Source: a virus
Length of the DNA: 42,879 nt
Direction: 5' to 3' (one strand)
Virus genome (UHGV): UHGV-0301147
A model generated the notes under the pieces. The model did not search any database. It worked only from the letters and a program-made list of their open reading frames with translations, and was not told the origin of the DNA. Both the position numbers and the translations under genes were made by a program. Positions 23,806-31,533 of this stretch are shown piece after piece. The first letter of the stretch is position 1. The number at the start of each line of letters is the position of its first letter.

Positions 23806-23985
23806 TTACGCGTCAGGGGGTGTAATAGTATATCCAGCTATTTCTGCCAACTCGAGAAACGCCATCAGGCTGGCAATCCGCTCATCATCGGTCAGAACAC
23901 GCACACCAACGATGTGTCCGTCCTTACGCTTGATAACAGCCCGGCATGTTTCCGGTAGTTCGCCTATAGATTCTTGAATATTCAT
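23806..23985 (-). CDS. Small hypothetical protein (~59 aa) preceded by an SOS box; candidate SOS-inducible antirepressor or division inhibitor
   Basis: ORF below the supplied 60-aa cut-off (MNIQESIGELPETCRAVIKRKDGH...), strong SD AGGGGGAAG, CTGT-N8-ACAG box 22 bp upstream; stop coordinate approximate. Confidence 0.45.
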   Translation of the reverse strand: MNIQESIGELPETCRAVIKRKDGHIVGVRVLTDDERIASLMAFLELAEIAGYTITPPDA

Positions 23986-24005: not shown

Positions 24006-24025
24006 GCCTGTACATTTATACAGTA
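24006..24025. promoter_or_regulatory. LexA (SOS) box candidate overlapping a sigma70-like promoter
   Basis: gcCTGTacatttatACAGta, close to the CTGT-N8-ACAG consensus; overlaps a putative -10 (TATAAA) with ATGACA -35 on the minus strand. Confidence 0.6.
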
Positions 24026-24136: not shown

Positions 24137-24768
24137 TTATTTATCACTCCTGTAAATTGAAATTAACCATTTTCTAATCGTCGACGCTGCAGGTGGGTCA
24201 GAGTATTTCGCCACAAAAATACCGGATATGTATTGCACACCACGCGATAATGGCGCTGTCGGGTTTTCAGTAAAAAAACGATCAGCCAGTTCAATGGCTT
24301 CGCTTTTTAATCTGTGCTGTGGCCGTCCTCCGCCCTTCGTGCCAAGGTAGCGCGCCAGTTGTTTGAAACGGTAAGCAATGATTAACGGTCGCATCATCAT
24401 ATTGAAAAAATCGCGGGCATCGTTGTCAGCGCCTTGCGCTATCAACAGTGCAAAAAACAGATACGGGATTGTGTACACTTCAGGGGATATACGAACTCGT
24501 TTACAGGTTGGTGGAGCCAAATTAATAAGTAAGTCAGCCAGCGAATTCCCCTTTTCTCCACGTTTGTAATAGCGATACAGCGGCCCGATATCGAGTTTAC
24601 TCACATCGATTTCAGGGTGCTCGGCAACGGCTGTACGTATCTCTTCTGCCAGAGCGTCAAATATTGCTCCGGTCCGCTCAAGATAGAGCCTCCGGGTCGA
24701 ACCGCGATCATCCAACGCCCGTAACATATCTAACCGGCTAACGAAAGTTTCAGGCCAGCCCTCATAGA
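24137..24768 (-). CDS. Hypothetical protein
   Basis: ORF with good SD (GAGGT) before the Met at 24768; the longer annotated start at 24814 lacks a ribosome-binding site; no family recognised. Confidence 0.5.
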
Positions 24769-24845
24769 AGGTTTTCATAATTACCTCGAATAATAAAAAC
24801 TGCACTATTTGCACAATTTATTATTCGTTTTCACATCGCAGGGTT

Positions 24846-24875
24846 CTATAAAAAAGAAAACCCGCCGAAGCGGGT
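24846..24875 (-). terminator. Rho-independent terminator after the 24897-25175 gene
   Basis: Minus strand aacccgc-ttcg-gcgggtt hairpin followed by TTCTTTTTTAT. Confidence 0.6.
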
Positions 24876-24896
24876 TAGTTAATAAGTTACACCTGG

Positions 24897-25175
24897 TTAT
24901 GAGGCCATGCCGTAGGCTTTTTTATGCATCCCATGGTCATATCCCATGTTATATGCTTCAAAAGCATCTTTATGACGTACATGCCCGGCCTGGCTTTCGG
25001 GTAAATCACCTAAAACAGAGTCATCAACCGCACGCGGAACGCCAATTAATGCGTGCCACATACCTTTATCATAGGCACATCCACAACATTTGTGCCGCCC
25101 AACGTTCCCCTGATTTGCGGAAAGAACATCAAACATACTGTCGTGACGATGTGACTTTTTACAGATGTGTTTCAT
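24897..25175 (-). CDS. Small Cys/His-rich hypothetical protein
   Basis: 92-aa ORF followed by its own terminator; start may be the internal Met; no family recognised. Confidence 0.45.
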   Translation of the reverse strand: MKHICKKSHRHDSMFDVLSANQGNVGRHKCCGCAYDKGMWHALIGVPRAVDDSVLGDLPESQAGHVRHKDAFEAYNMGYDHGMHKKAYGMAS

Positions 25176-25203
25176 TCATTGACCTATATCATTTTCGGTA
25201 ATG

Positions 25204-25265
25204 AATGCTTTACACGGGATCCCGGTTGAGGTAATCTCCCAAACCGAGATCTCAACGAAAGCATT
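25204..25265 (+). ncRNA. Candidate structured small RNA (nested stem-loops) ending at the plus-strand terminator
   Basis: Outer stem aatgcttt / aaagcatt (25204-25211 with 25258-25265) enclosing gggatccc and an interrupted helix ggttgag...atctc / gagatctcaac; a terminator follows 9 nt downstream. Confidence 0.3.
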
Positions 25266-25273
25266 AACCGATG

Positions 25274-25308
25274 TTTTTGTATGGCCCTGACAGCTCCAAC
25301 TGTCAGGG
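25274..25308 (+). terminator. Rho-independent terminator (plus strand) with no protein gene upstream on that strand
   Basis: 10-bp stem gccctgacag / ctgtcagggc, 6-nt loop, followed by TTTCCCTTT. Confidence 0.6.
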
Positions 25309-25395
25309 CTTTCCCTTTGATGCGATTCTAAAATCTTCGCAACCTCCAGATCCTATCCAGGACCAAGAAAAACTTCAATGAAAAGATCAAGTTAG

Positions 25396-25415
25396 ATCTG
25401 TATTTTTTTACAGAT
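25396..25415. promoter_or_regulatory. Second LexA-box-like site
   Basis: atCTGTatttttttACAGat fits CTGT-N8-ACAG with an AT-only centre; in the 567-bp intergenic region between the 92-aa gene and the ImmA-like gene. Confidence 0.45.
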
Positions 25416-25651
25416 GTAATAAATCACACATGTAATAGCCTTCCCTTCCTGTGCTCATCCAGGCGCTTGTGGCATCCATTTTTTTCAGAAACATATGGAC
25501 GCCTAAAAAACCACTAATCTCATGATTATCCTGTATGTTTTTACTGGAAACATTGAGACATCCACAATGCAGCGTAAAAAGCAAGCAATTCACAAGATTT
25601 TAAAGTGATTTATCTGGAAGACTTTACTACTAACAGTTAATATCGTACCAG

Positions 25652-25670
25652 AAGTGCAGAATTTGCACTT
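25652..25670. promoter_or_regulatory. 19-bp perfect palindrome (operator candidate) upstream of the ImmA-like operon
   Basis: AAGTGCA-GAATT-TGCACTT, ~75 bp upstream of the start at 25743. Confidence 0.4.
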
Positions 25671-25742
25671 TTACAGGAATGTGGTACGGAACATGTTGTC
25701 TATATTTCGACCAATAATCGTAATGCAGTAACTGGAGGAGCT

Positions 25743-26231
25743 ATGGCTACCAACCCAAGAGAGCACGCCCGGCGAGTGCTGGACACGTTCTGGTGCGGGC
25801 GTGGTTTCCCTGTTGATCCAGCGAAAATTGCTCACGACATGGGATTAGATGTTTTTATTACCGATCTTCCTGGGAAAGTTTCTGGCGCACTGATTAAACA
25901 AAAAGATCAAGATCCAGCGATCTTTCTAAACAGTGATGACAACAAAGTTCGTCAACGTTTTTCATGTGGGCATGAGTTGGGGCATTACATCGCCCGGCAA
26001 GCATCGCATAGCGATGAATATGAGTACGTTGATTTACGTGGCGAAACCGCAAGCGCCGGAACGCATCCTGATGAAATTTTTGCGAACAAGTTCGCAGCAG
26101 AACTTCTGATGCCGGTAGATGAGGTCAGAAAACTGCACGCTGACGGCCAACCAAGTTATATAATGGCGCATCATTTTGGCGTATCTGACGATGCGATGAC
26201 TTATCGTTTAAAGAACTTGAGGTTGGGGTAA
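25743..26231 (+). CDS. ImmA/IrrE family zinc metallopeptidase
   Basis: 162-aa ORF with HEXXH motif (CGHELGHYIARQ) and strong SD GGAGGAG. Confidence 0.85.
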   Translation: MATNPREHARRVLDTFWCGRGFPVDPAKIAHDMGLDVFITDLPGKVSGALIKQKDQDPAIFLNSDDNKVRQRFSCGHELGHYIARQASHSDEYEYVDLRGETASAGTHPDEIFANKFAAELLMPVDEVRKLHADGQPSYIMAHHFGVSDDAMTYRLKNLRLG

Positions 26232-26240
26232 CGCTTTAGA

Positions 26241-26846
26241 ATGCCATCGGATGACGATTTTAACAGCCGTTTCAAACAGGAAGTTGCACGCCGACTGAAG
26301 GATTCCCTCAACCTACACCGTCAGTTAGCAGAAGAGGTTGAGCCGGAGGAGGATGAAACTCCGGTTCAGTCTCCTGACGAAACTTCACCTCAGACAAAGG
26401 TTTCGCACGCTCCAAAAAAACCGTCTGCCCGTATTCACGGAATAGCCAGAAAAAGAGCTGCCGAAGCTCACAAAATGGCTGTAGCTGCGTCAATCAAAAG
26501 AATTCCAATTCCTACCCCCTCTCAACAAGTCACCCGTACTGAGAGTAAAATCTTGACCGAGTTCACATCTGTGAAACAGGTGAGTTCACTTGATACCGAG
26601 CATGAGCGCAAACAACTCAACAACAAAGATTTTGAAGCTGAAATCGCTCTAAAAAAACGCTACGGAAAATGGTTCCTGATAATCCTTGCTTGCCAACTTC
26701 TGATAATGAATGGTGTATTTATTGCCGACGGCGCAGGTAAGCTGGAATTTGAAGATTTAACGCTACAGTTGTACATGGGCGGTACTTTGACAGAGGTATT
26801 CGGCCTCGTGCTGGTCGTGACAAAATACCTTTTTAAACGCAAGTAA
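26241..26846 (+). CDS. Hypothetical membrane protein (acidic N-terminal region, two C-terminal transmembrane helices), co-operonic with the ImmA-like gene
   Basis: 201-aa ORF starting 9 bp after the ImmA-like stop; hydrophobic segments KWFLIILACQLLIMNGVFIA and GGTLTEVFGLVLVVTKYLF. Confidence 0.6.
   Translation: MPSDDDFNSRFKQEVARRLKDSLNLHRQLAEEVEPEEDETPVQSPDETSPQTKVSHAPKKPSARIHGIARKRAAEAHKMAVAASIKRIPIPTPSQQVTRTESKILTEFTSVKQVSSLDTEHERKQLNNKDFEAEIALKKRYGKWFLIILACQLLIMNGVFIADGAGKLEFEDLTLQLYMGGTLTEVFGLVLVVTKYLFKRK
26775..26846 (+). repeat. Direct repeat copy A (last 24 codons of the membrane-protein gene)
   Basis: 72 bp matching 30377-30448 with 6 mismatches. Confidence 0.8.
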
Positions 26847-30472: not shown

Positions 30473-31309
30473 TCAAAATGCTGAATCAGCAACAGATACA
30501 GCCGACTTTTTCCCCATTACCATCAATTTATCCAGTGTCATACTTCGCAGATTGTCGCTGTGGATCACCAGATACCCTGCCCGCTCAGCGATCTCTTTGA
30601 AAGCGTCAAAGGTCATCAGATGTTCGCCTTTGGCAACATGGCGCATCCTTGTCACTTTTCCATTTTTGATAGTGGTGATAAAAGAAAAATCCGGAATGGT
30701 TGGCTGATTTTCATCGAGTAGCAGGCAGTGGATGTATTCAATCGCCTCTAACATTTGCGTCTGTGACAGTTGTTCTATGTGAGAGACGGCGAAGCGTTGA
30801 TGAATCATGGTGTAGGCATCGGGATACATCATGCCTTTCTTACCGACCAGCATATTAACGGCATCACGTAAGGGAGTACGGTCATCGGTAGTTGTACTCC
30901 GCCTCTCTGGGCGCTGGCTAAAATAACAATCTTCAAGCTTTTCGAAAACTTCCCAAGCCTGTTCTGTTTCCAGCATTTTGGCATGGCGAGCTGCGCCGCG
31001 TTCTGTCCAGAGAATGAGGGATCGGGTATGTTTAGCAACTGACTGACTATCTGTCAGTCTGTTTTTGAAGTCGCGTAATTCATTACCTTCCAGCTTAAAA
31101 AAATGCTTTCCTACGACAAATCTGGCGATGTTGCGCTTGAAGTTTTGCTGGATACCATTTACTTCCGTGCCATACAAACTGGCAAGCAATTCAGTAGTGA
31201 TGACGGGAAGTTGGTTATGATGTAGCGGAGAAAGGGATTCCGCAGATATTTGGATTGTCATCGCAGTGGCCTCACTTAGTGTTTTTTTCATCACCACCAG
31301 CGACGCCAA
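30473..31309 (-). CDS. Phage antirepressor-like regulatory protein (Ant/Rha-type N-terminal domain)
   Basis: 278-aa ORF with antirepressor-like N-terminal region; true start probably an internal Met. Confidence 0.55.
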   Translation of the reverse strand: MASLVVMKKTLSEATAMTIQISAESLSPLHHNQLPVITTELLASLYGTEVNGIQQNFKRNIARFVVGKHFFKLEGNELRDFKNRLTDSQSVAKHTRSLILWTERGAARHAKMLETEQAWEVFEKLEDCYFSQRPERRSTTTDDRTPLRDAVNMLVGKKGMMYPDAYTMIHQRFAVSHIEQLSQTQMLEAIEYIHCLLLDENQPTIPDFSFITTIKNGKVTRMRHVAKGEHLMTFDAFKEIAERAGYLVIHSDNLRSMTLDKLMVMGKKSAVSVADSAF

Positions 31310-31533
31310 TCATCTGGTGGTGAACTGTGCAGGGTTGGCGTAACCGGCTAAGTGAACCCGGCGCTTCCGCAGAAGCCCCCACACAGCCCACCATAATGCG
31401 AATGTGGCCGTGCCTAACACATAAAAAAACCGCTAACGCGGCTATGCGTCACTTAGATATCCGGGACGCCAATCCCGGCAACCGATTTTGCGGCTGCGCG
31501 GAAACTATAGCCCCGGGCTTTTTCTAAGTCAAT

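What the first reader, a model, noticed from the sequence alone, without database searches (positions are those of the whole stretch)
24846..25415. Candidate small RNA with its own terminator next to a second SOS-box-like site and a Cys/His-rich small protein gene
Between the 92-aa gene and the ImmA-like gene there is a plus-strand terminator (25274-25308) with no protein gene upstream on that strand, preceded by a nested stem-loop region (25204-25265). A CTGT-N8-ACAG site lies at 25396-25415. The layout resembles SOS-inducible type I toxin-antitoxin or sRNA-regulated loci: a long 5' UTR on one strand, a terminated small RNA on the other.
Basis: partly seen in the sequence, partly recalled or inferred. 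Interest (0 to 1): 0.6.

Follow-up and report, generated by a model that had tools for sequence, protein, structure and literature searches.

The report
Antisense small RNA guarding a prophage gene
The plus-strand terminator most likely ends an undescribed ~73-nt antisense RNA that, together with a self-folding leader, keeps a small zinc-binding prophage protein switched off; the layout matches RNA-controlled toxin genes, but neither toxicity nor the SOS link is shown.

Summary
A hairpin plus U-rich tail lies at 25283-25318 (+), inverted repeats at 25204-25265, and CTGT-N8-ACAG at 25398-25413.

Comparing 76 related loci changes the anatomy. The 92-aa gene (24897-25175, -) travels as a self-contained cassette with two face-to-face promoters, both kept in all 45 distinct copies:
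- **P_anti:** TTTACA-17-TAATCT, 25209-25237 (+).
- **P_sense:** TTGAAG-17-TAGGAT, 25378-25350 (-).

P_anti should give a ~73-nt RNA (~25243-25318) with a 12-nt single-stranded tail, stem-loop 1, and a terminator stem-loop. Sixteen of 20 pairs show compensatory changes. G·U pairs outnumber A·C 65 to 7, which places the structure on the plus strand.

The RNA is fully complementary to the middle of a ~169-nt leader. That leader also has a 5' hairpin and a hairpin that pairs the Shine-Dalgarno sequence in 41 of 41 copies.

The LexA-like box is weak, sits near -61 and is not conserved.

The protein is a confident but uncharacterised Cys/His fold, not a membrane peptide. Its toxicity is untested. 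No Rfam family or paper found here matches.

Verdict: a new family of a known kind, namely a cis-antisense-controlled, type I toxin-antitoxin-like moron.

The parts
25209..25214 (+). -35 hexamer (TTTACA) of P_anti, the promoter of the antisense RNA
   Evidence: TTTACA in 40 and TTTACT in 5 of 45 distinct homologous cassettes, always 17 nt from the -10. In the window it matches the consensus at 5 of 6 positions.
25232..25237 (+). -10 hexamer (TAATCT) of P_anti
   Evidence: TAnnnT in 45 of 45 distinct cassettes, with nine variants including TACAAT and TAGAAT; the spacer is always 17 nt. In the window it matches at only 3 of 6, below the simple scan's threshold.
25243..25318 (+). Predicted cis-antisense small RNA, ~73-76 nt. 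The start is inferred from the -10 and the end from the U-rich tail.
   Evidence: Covariance model R1 scores 61.7 bits (E 3.6e-12) at 25238-25323. It is the only hit in the window and sits at the same relative place in 52 related loci. Fold: -30.3 kcal/mol, z -6.08. No Rfam family matches.
25243..25254 (+). Single-stranded 5' tail of the RNA (ACCGAGAUCUCA), the best-conserved part; contains a GATC
   Evidence: GAGATCTCAA is kept in most cassettes. It is replaced by the other palindromes GGTGATCAC or GCGAGCTCAAG in two subgroups. Unpaired in the MFE and centroid structures.
25255..25280 (+). Stem-loop 1 of the RNA (A/U-rich; 11 bp in the window's MFE fold, loop AACC)
   Evidence: The covariance model represents this stem with 9 pairs, and 7 of those 9 show changes on both sides. 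93% of cells are paired, with many G·U pairs.
25283..25310 (+). Stem-loop 2, the terminator hairpin (11 bp, loop CTCCAA)
   Evidence: Terminator scan. 9 of 11 pairs have compensatory changes. G·U wobbles occur where the opposite strand would have A·C mismatches.
25311..25318 (+). U-rich tail (UUCCCUUU)
   Evidence: Read from the sequence. The tail is only moderately U-rich and weaker in some homologs, for example GUCCUAUAU.
25373..25378 (-). -35 hexamer (TTGAAG) of P_sense, the promoter of the 92-aa gene
   Evidence: TTGAnn in 44 of 45 distinct cassettes.
25350..25355 (-). -10 hexamer (TAGGAT) of P_sense
   Evidence: TAnnAT-type hexamer 16-17 nt downstream of the -35 in 45 of 45 cassettes; TATAAT in 11.
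25176..25344 (-). ~169-nt 5' leader of the 92-aa mRNA. The start is inferred. The whole antisense RNA is complementary to its middle part.
   Evidence: Fold: -61 kcal/mol, z -4.4. The leader is conserved better than the coding sequence between E. coli and Salmonella phage BIS08P22.
25321..25341 (-). 5'-terminal stem-loop of the leader (GCGA...UCGC)
   Evidence: A hairpin starts 5-12 nt after the P_sense -10 in all groups. The arm sequences differ between groups: AUGUGG/CCACAU, UGUGC/GCACA, GGUGUG/CACUAG and others.
25204..25265 (-). It can form only in the minus-strand leader and encloses P_anti on the DNA.
   Evidence: Predicted in the leader fold. The arms flanking the -10 covary between groups: CTTGAGA/TCTCAAG, GATCACC/GGTGATC, TGAGATCTC/GAGATCTCA. 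The left arm is absent in the L055 and L058 groups.
25173..25207 (-). Hairpin that pairs the Shine-Dalgarno (AGG, 25183-25185) and the AUG (25173-25175)
   Evidence: The SD is at least partly paired in the local MFE of 41 of 41 distinct cassettes and fully paired in 22. Mean z is -3.3, and the arms differ between groups.
24897..25175 (-). 92-aa Cys/His-rich protein gene
   Evidence: phrog_3941 over its full length, E 2.6e-42. Invariant C5, H9, H28, C30, C33 and SQAGxVRHKD. AlphaFold pLDDT 89. No Pfam, NCBIfam, PADLOC or PDB match.
24859..24876 (-). Terminator of the 92-aa gene
   Evidence: AACCCGCTTCGGCGGGTT followed by TTCTTTTTT.
25398..25413 (.). LexA-box-like palindrome CTGTATTTTTTTACAG (20-mer 25396-25415), centred about -61 from the P_sense start
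   Evidence: Second-best LexA score in the window, but at the low end of real sites. Kept in Escherichia whittamii (L005) and degraded in most other cassettes.
25385..25388 (.). Invariant GATC 6 nt upstream of the P_sense -35. It is one of five GATC sites in the module; the others are 25218-25221, 25248-25251, 25349-25352 and 25395-25398.
   Evidence: Invariant in the six-genus alignment. GATC is 4.4-fold enriched at fixed positions across 45 cassettes.

Best explanation
The region is the control part of a self-contained prophage 'moron' cassette. The 92-aa Cys/His-rich protein gene is transcribed leftward from its own sigma-70 promoter (P_sense). Its mRNA has a ~169-nt structured leader, and the gene ends at its own terminator.

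Inside the leader DNA, facing P_sense, is a second promoter (P_anti). It makes a ~73-nt non-coding RNA that ends at the plus-strand hairpin. This RNA has a 12-nt single-stranded tail followed by two stem-loops, and it is perfectly complementary to the middle of the leader.

Inferred mechanism:
- The antisense RNA pairs with the leader, probably starting from its conserved single-stranded tail.
- The duplex is then cleaved (RNase III) and/or blocks an upstream ribosome-loading or processing step.
- The leader's own hairpin over the Shine-Dalgarno and AUG keeps full-length mRNA poorly translatable.
- Protein would be made only when sense transcription outruns the antisense RNA.

What is shown and what is inferred:
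- Shown by comparative analysis: both promoters, the RNA's structure and its strand, and the leader hairpins.
- Not shown: the existence of the transcripts, repression, and the nature of the protein.
For: Conservation of the non-coding region:
- It is conserved better than the coding sequence between E. coli and a Salmonella P22-like phage.
- It is conserved across six genera.

Promoters:
- P_anti (-35 TTTACA/T, exactly 17 nt, -10 TAnnnT) and P_sense (TTGAnn, 16-17 nt, TAnnAT-type hexamer) are present in 45 of 45 distinct cassettes.

RNA structure and strand:
- The covariance model finds the RNA at the same place, always antisense, in 52 loci.
- 93% of cells are paired and 16 of 20 pairs show compensatory change. 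The covariation score is 0.47, against 0.146 for shuffles (0 of 500 reach it) and at most 0.105 for slid partners.
- G·U pairs outnumber A·C 65 to 7 on the plus strand.
- The plus orientation is more stable in 23 of 30 sequences.
- The predicted RNA folds with z -6.1.

Leader:
- The SD-pairing hairpin is present in 41 of 41 cassettes.
- The 5' stem-loop has covarying arms.

Persistence and mobility:
- Two more distant gene groups (L065/68/70/73 and L079/80, below 52% protein identity) also carry an antisense promoter and a terminator upstream of the gene, with unrelated sequence (read by eye).
- The cassette occurs in many phage contexts with its own promoters and terminator.

Precedent:
- Antitoxin RNAs that bind far upstream of the ribosome-binding site of a structured, poorly translated toxin mRNA are described in the review PMC4147584 (tisB/IstR-1, zorO/OrzO; RNase III).
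Against: - No expression data exist. The start and end of both RNAs are inferred.
- In the window both promoters match the consensus at only 8 of 12 positions, and the simple scan missed them.
- The tail after the hairpin is only moderately U-rich and is poor in a few homologs.
- The RNA does not cover the Shine-Dalgarno or AUG. Masking its target lowers predicted ribosome-site accessibility only slightly (0.34 to 0.27, lower in 40 of 44). How pairing represses is therefore open.
- The alignment used for pair counts was fitted to the model, which favours pairing.
- Several distant homologs show no such RNA: L066, L069, L071, L074, L076-78.
Confidence: 0.7

Rival explanations
1. SOS-induced type I toxin-antitoxin locus. 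LexA represses the toxin promoter through the CTGT-N8-ACAG site, DNA damage induces the 92-aa toxin, and the small RNA is its antitoxin.
For: - The box is exact in its core. It is the second-best LexA-like site in the window and is kept in Escherichia whittamii.
- It lies in the spacer of a possible second, upstream promoter: TTACAT-17-TCTAAC in the window, TTACAG-17-TATAAG in BIS08P22.
- A much stronger box lies 1.4 kb away at 24006-24025.
- tisB, symE and dinQ are precedents for LexA-controlled type I toxins (PMC4147584).
- The antisense and leader architecture fits.
Against: - The box scores 14.1 against 12.6-26.9 for real sites, on a matrix rebuilt from memory.
- It is centred about -61 from the conserved promoter, not over it.
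- In most cassettes the right half is ACAT or ACAC, with scores of 5-13.5.
- The protein is not hydrophobic, matches no known toxin family, and its toxicity is untested.
Confidence: 0.22
2. Control by transcriptional interference. The two convergent promoters, about 100 bp apart, act through colliding or blocking RNA polymerases, and the small RNA is mainly a by-product.
For: Face-to-face promoters at a fixed distance in 45 of 45 cassettes. Sense polymerases must run through P_anti.
Against: - The antisense transcript is stopped by a conserved, covarying hairpin about 26 nt before it reaches the P_sense start. That limits interference in that direction.
- The RNA's two stems are under selection for pairing on the plus strand, which a by-product would not need.
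- The two mechanisms are not exclusive.
Confidence: 0.15
3. The functional element is the minus-strand leader itself, or DNA operators within it. Candidates are the GAGATCTC-type palindromes, acting as a cis-regulatory RNA or as a protein-binding site. The plus-strand hairpin would be only its complement, or an insulator that stops stray transcription.
For: - The leader folds well (z -4.4).
- The inverted repeats around the P_anti -10 covary between groups.
- Palindromic 6-8-mers and GATC sites sit at fixed positions.
- The 92-aa domain is fused to DNA-related domains in distant relatives, so autoregulation at the DNA level is conceivable.
Against: - G·U pairs outnumber A·C 65 to 7, which places stem-loops 1 and 2 on the plus strand.
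- The invariant -35/-10 pair with a fixed 17-nt spacer is not explained.
- The L055 and L058 groups keep the promoter and RNA but lack the left arm of the palindrome.
Confidence: 0.1

Closest known systems
tisB/IstR-1 (also zorO/OrzO, dinQ/AgrB, shoB/OhsC), E. coli type I toxin-antitoxin loci
   Same: [quoted passage not shown]
- Full-length mRNA has its ribosome site sequestered.
- The RNA has its own constitutive-looking promoter.
- In the window there is a LexA-like box upstream of the protein gene (PMC4147584).
   Different: - Those RNAs are encoded divergently and share only about 20 nt with the target. Here the RNA is fully overlapping (cis, ~73 nt).
- Those toxins are 18-50-aa membrane peptides. 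Here the protein is a 92-aa soluble Cys/His-rich protein.
- There is no sequence or Rfam relationship; the only weak istR hit (18 bits against a gathering score of 45) lies elsewhere, at 24854-24957 on the minus strand.
symE/SymR (E. coli)
   Same: - A cis-encoded antisense RNA opposite the 5' end of an SOS-regulated gene.
- The product is a ~100-aa non-membrane protein (PMC4147584).
   Different: - SymR covers the Shine-Dalgarno and start codon. This RNA ends about 70 nt upstream of the AUG.
- No Pfam family, SymE's included, matches the 92-aa protein.
hok/Sok (plasmid R1 and chromosomal copies)
   Same: - A cis antisense RNA in the leader, with a single-stranded 5' tail followed by a stem-loop.
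- An mRNA folded so that translation is blocked.
- A mobile, self-contained cassette.
   Different: - There is no overlapping leader reading frame like mok. The only ORF in the RNA region is not conserved.
- There is no evidence of 3' processing.
- The protein is not a membrane peptide.
IS10 RNA-IN/RNA-OUT
   Same: Face-to-face promoters giving overlapping transcripts, with GATC (Dam) sites built into the promoter region. The IS10 facts are from my own knowledge; the GATC enrichment here is.
   Different: - The IS10 overlap is about 36 nt and includes the ribosome-binding site of the transposase mRNA.
- Here the overlap is ~73 nt within the leader only.
- Any role of Dam here is conjecture.
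Phage antisense RNAs: P22 sar/ant and sas/sieB, lambda OOP/cII, P1 C4
   Same: Small antisense RNAs of temperate phages that hold back a gene whose untimely expression would be harmful (PMC7067206). In at least 10 loci the cassette sits just downstream of the cI repressor gene, like other prophage-expressed accessory genes.
   Different: - No sequence or structure match: sar scores 15.8 bits against a gathering score of 43.
- The target is an accessory gene of unknown function, not a lysis-lysogeny regulator.
- A separate C4/isrK locus exists elsewhere in this window.

Membership tests
Type I toxin-antitoxin system | The antitoxin is a small non-coding RNA that base-pairs with the toxin mRNA | tested here: met
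   In silico only. A conserved promoter and terminator define a ~73-nt RNA fully complementary to the leader. It has no conserved ORF: the AUG at 25271 is absent from most homologs.
Type I toxin-antitoxin system | The protein is toxic when expressed without the RNA, and the RNA relieves this | not testable with these tools
   Needs expression experiments. No similarity to any known toxin or defence protein.
Type I toxin-antitoxin system | The toxin is a small (usually under 60 aa) hydrophobic membrane peptide | tested here: not met
   92 aa, charged and Cys/His-rich, predicted as a compact helical fold with pLDDT 89. SymE and RalR are accepted exceptions (PMC4147584).
Type I toxin-antitoxin system | The toxin mRNA has a long structured leader that limits translation | tested here: met
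   ~169-nt leader with z -4.4. The SD is paired in 41 of 41 cassettes.
Type I toxin-antitoxin system | Unstable RNA antitoxin versus stable toxin mRNA | not testable with these tools
   Needs half-life measurements.
LexA (SOS) regulon member | A 16-bp CTGT-N8-ACAG palindrome with an A/T-rich centre | tested here: met
   CTGTATTTTTTTACAG at 25398-25413. The rough matrix score is 14.1, at the low end of real sites (matrix built from sites recalled from memory).
LexA (SOS) regulon member | The box overlaps or adjoins the regulated promoter | tested here: inconclusive
   Centred about -61 from the conserved P_sense. It lies in the spacer of a weaker, poorly conserved upstream promoter candidate.
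LexA (SOS) regulon member | The box is kept in orthologous loci | tested here: not met
   Kept in E. whittamii only. Elsewhere it reads CTGT..ACAT, CTGT..ACAC or CTGA..ACAC, with scores of 5-13.5.
LexA (SOS) regulon member | LexA binding, and induction by DNA damage | not testable with these tools
   Needs a gel shift or ChIP, and mitomycin C induction.
Any described RNA family (Rfam 15) | Score at or above the family's gathering threshold | tested here: not met
   No hit in 24700-25800 reaches a threshold. The best scores are 15-20 bits against thresholds of 41-95. A whole-window gathering search finds only isrK, C4 and c4-a1b1 at 31313-31510.
Rho-independent terminator | G+C-rich stem-loop followed directly by a U tract | tested here: met
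   11-bp stem with 7 G-C pairs, then UUCCCUUU. The tract is interrupted and is weaker in some homologs, so efficiency is uncertain.

The most novel reading that the evidence does not exclude
The cassette is a new kind of phage-borne RNA-gated toxin or defence module.
- Its effector would be a previously uncharacterised zinc-binding, DNA-directed domain. The same domain is fused to DndB, HNH and WYL modules in distant relatives.
- It would be held off by a cis-antisense RNA and a self-sequestering leader.
- Its face-to-face promoters, studded with conserved GATC sites, would read the Dam-methylation (replication) state of phage DNA.
- The protein would then be released only during infection or induction.
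Probability: 0.15. Interest if true: 0.75.

Novelty: new member of a known kind. Interest (0 to 1): 0.52.

Why it matters
**What is defined.** The analysis defines, from sequence alone, an undescribed small-RNA family and its target in temperate phages and prophages. It occurs in at least six genera of Enterobacterales: Escherichia, Salmonella, Yersinia, Rahnella, Providencia and Proteus. Protein homologues also occur in Enterobacter, Serratia, Cronobacter and Klebsiella.

**Why it is testable.** Promoters, ends and structure are predicted precisely enough to test directly.

**Why the gene may matter.** Two layers of RNA control on a short gene usually mark a product that is harmful if mistimed. 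The cassette is often placed just after the cI repressor gene, where prophages keep exclusion and defence genes. Together these make the 92-aa protein a good candidate for a new toxin, exclusion factor or anti-defence factor.

**Consequence for annotation.** Genome annotation currently shows only 'hypothetical protein' and an empty 570-bp gap here.

Tried and rejected
**Known RNA families.** Rfam at gathering thresholds and at E up to 10 gave nothing for this region.

**Protein function.** All of the following gave no informative match:
- Pfam, NCBIfam, PADLOC.
- A PDB profile search.
- Foldseek against BFVD.

The AlphaFold database library was not available. The only lead is fusion of the domain to DndB, HNH_2 and WYL in a few distant relatives.

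**Coding potential of the plus strand.**
- The 36-aa ORF at 25271-25381 is rejected. Its AUG and frame are not kept: there is a 1-nt indel against BIS08P22 and no ATG in most cassettes.
- The 130-aa ORF at 24809-25201 is rejected as a shadow of the 92-aa gene.

**Antisense binding refolding the leader to close the ribosome site.** The effect in silico is only small, so this is not proposed as the main mechanism.

**STnc6030 of prophage BTP1 as the same element.** Rejected. It is a ~786-nt RNA antisense to tail genes.

**Promoter scan.** The simple promoter scan did not find either promoter in the window. They were recognised only through conservation.

Full report
**Where we are**

The window is a lambdoid prophage of Escherichia coli. 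It is 100% identical over the query to NZ_CP098214. The nin, Q, lysis and head genes run on the minus strand.

The finding lies in a 570-bp gap. On one side is a 92-aa gene (24897-25175, -). On the other is a divergent ImmA/IrrE-type metallopeptidase gene (25743-26231, +), whose closest defence-library match is CapP. The 92-aa gene matches phrog_3941 end to end. It has its own terminator at 24859-24876.

**Checking the observation**

All three features are present:
- The plus-strand hairpin GGCCCTGACAG/CTCCAA/CTGTCAGGGCT (25283-25310) with a U-rich tail is found by the terminator scan.
- The inverted repeats at 25204-25265 are present.
- CTGT-N8-ACAG is at 25398-25413. It is one of two such sites in the window, against 0.44 expected.

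Rfam has no family for the region.

**Related sequences change the picture**

A Salmonella P22-like phage, BIS08P22, carries a homologue of the 92-aa gene just downstream of its cI repressor gene. The ~240 nt upstream of the gene are better conserved than the coding sequence. The hairpin differs by compensatory changes.

Protein-guided searches brought in 76 further loci. They come from Escherichia, Providencia, Proteus, Yersinia and Rahnella genomes and from many viral contigs.

In every one of 45 distinct copies two promoters face each other:
- **P_anti** (plus strand in the window): TTTACA, exactly 17 nt, then TAnnnT. In the window this is 25209-25214 and 25232-25237.
- **P_sense** (minus strand): TTGAnn, 16-17 nt, then a TAnnAT-type hexamer. 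In the window this is 25378-25373 and 25355-25350.

In the window each matches the consensus at only 8 of 12 positions. That is why the simple scan missed them. The case for them rests on conservation.

**The small RNA**

P_anti predicts a start at about 25243-25246. The hairpin and tail predict an end at about 25311-25318. That gives ~73 nt.

The RNA folds into three parts at -30.3 kcal/mol, z = -6.1:
- a 12-nt single-stranded tail (ACCGAGAUCUCA);
- an A/U-rich stem-loop (25255-25280);
- the terminator stem-loop.

A covariance model built from 14 sequences finds the element once in the window (25238-25323, 61.7 bits). It also finds it in 52 related loci, always antisense to the gene and 60-150 nt upstream of its start codon.

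On that alignment:
- 93% of cells are paired.
- 16 of 20 pairs show changes on both sides.
- The covariation score is 0.47, against 0.146 for shuffles (0 of 500 reach it) and at most 0.105 for slid partners.

Watson-Crick covariation cannot tell the strands apart, so I counted wobbles. There are 65 G·U cells against 7 A·C cells. The plus orientation is also the more stable one in 23 of 30 sequences.

One caveat applies: the alignment was fitted to the model, which leans towards pairing.

The -35 and -10 of P_anti lie inside it, so the sRNA contains only its 3' half. In the sRNA that half (25255-25265) pairs with 25270-25280 instead.

The nested structure can form in the minus-strand leader. 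Its arms covary between groups. Two groups lack the left arm yet keep the promoter and the RNA.

**The sense mRNA**

From P_sense the leader is about 169 nt (25344-25176). It has three conserved features:
- It starts with a hairpin whose arms differ from group to group.
- It carries the complement of the sRNA in its middle.
- It ends in a hairpin that pairs the Shine-Dalgarno, and often the AUG, in 41 of 41 distinct copies.

The sRNA target ends about 70 nt before the AUG. Masking the target in silico lowers the predicted accessibility of the ribosome site only a little, from 0.34 to 0.27.

The likeliest modes of action are therefore duplex cleavage or blocking of an upstream loading or processing step. 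This is as described for tisB/IstR-1 and zorO/OrzO (PMC4147584). It is inference.

**Persistence over evolutionary distance**

Two groups of distant homologues (below 52% protein identity) have an antisense promoter and a clear terminator upstream of the gene, with unrelated sequence. Some other distant homologues have none (read by eye).

**The SOS box**

On a rough LexA matrix, built from sites I recalled from memory, the site scores 14.1. Real sites range from 12.6 to 26.9 with a median of 20.2. It is the second best in the window.

Three points count against a general SOS role:
- The box is centred about 61 nt upstream of the P_sense start.
- It lies in the spacer of a weak upstream promoter candidate only.
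- In most cassettes the right half-site is ACAT or ACAC.

SOS control may exist in this E. coli copy. It is not a property of the module.

**The protein**

The family is small and, at the level of close relatives, confined to Enterobacterales. C5, H9, H28, C30, C33 and the motif SQAGxVRHKD are invariant, which suggests a zinc site.

AlphaFold gives a confident helical model with pLDDT 89. No relative turned up in the PDB or BFVD.

A full profile search finds 273 representative proteins. A few carry the domain fused to DndB, HNH_2 or WYL domains. This hints at a DNA-directed role, but nothing more can be said. It is not a membrane peptide.

**Context**

The cassette is mobile among phage genomes. 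It occurs:
- after cI-type S24 repressor genes in at least 10 loci;
- beside umuDC-like genes;
- beside a ParM-like gene, suggesting plasmid prophages;
- beside lysis genes.

In ST131-type E. coli prophages a different small gene occupies the same site between the same flanks.

**Verdict**

Its extent needs correcting. The SOS link is weak. The 'toxin' label is untested.

This is a new family of a well-known kind of regulator.

Noticed in passing
window 25218-25221, 25248-25251, 25349-25352, 25385-25388, 25395-25398: GATC (Dam) sites are 4.4-fold enriched in the module: 3.7 against 0.84 expected per ~238 bp over 45 distinct cassettes. They sit at fixed places: in the P_anti spacer, at +5..+8 of the RNA, at the edge of the P_sense -10, and invariantly 6 nt upstream of the P_sense -35. 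Methylation-state control, as in IS10, is conceivable.
   Followed up: partly
window 24006-24025: A strong LexA-box-like site, GCCTGTACATTTATACAGTA, with a rough score of 19.8, near the median of real boxes. It lies about 20 nt upstream of the 59-aa gene 23806-23985 (-), phrog_340, of unknown function.
   Followed up: partly
window 25654-25668 and 24800-24815: A perfect palindrome, GTGCAGAATTTGCAC, lies upstream of the ImmA/CapP-like gene. A related CTGCACTATTTGCACA lies upstream of the 213-aa gene (24137-24778, -). They may be a shared operator for an unidentified regulator.
   Followed up: no
window 25743-26846: The ImmA/IrrE-type peptidase is most similar to CapP, the protease of CapH/CapP-regulated defence operons (E 1.6e-25). 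It is followed not by an HTH repressor gene but by a 201-aa protein (phrog_5346) that matches no Pfam, NCBIfam or PADLOC family and, read by eye, has a hydrophobic C-terminus.
   Followed up: no
L002 1560-2110 (E. coli ST131-type prophages; same site as window 24840-25480): About 400 E. coli genomes carry a different cassette between the same flanks: a 77-aa plus-strand gene with its own terminator. The right junction falls at AAGATCAnGTTAGAnCTGTATTTT, inside the LexA-like box region. This points to cassette exchange at this spot.
   Followed up: partly
window 31313-31510 (-): A P1-type immI RNA locus. C4 antisense RNA (74.5 bits), its a1/b1 targets and isrK (80.4 bits) lie just upstream of an ORF6N-domain (antirepressor-like) gene at 30473-31309.
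   Followed up: no
window 25529-25548: A third weak LexA-like site, TCCTGTATGTTTTTACTGGA (score 12.6), in the same intergenic region, about 200 nt upstream of the ImmA-like gene.
   Followed up: no
L044 2756-2908: A Yersinia-type viral contig has a composite control region. The 5' part of one cassette (P_sense, 5' hairpin, terminator hairpin) is joined to a second, different hairpin and promoter region. This suggests recombination between cassettes.
   Followed up: no
L016-L018, L052-L054 (upstream of the cassette): In one subgroup the cassette lies next to divergently oriented umuD- and umuC-like genes, which are SOS mutagenesis genes. This is a recurring neighbourhood that may bear on a DNA-damage link.
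   Followed up: no
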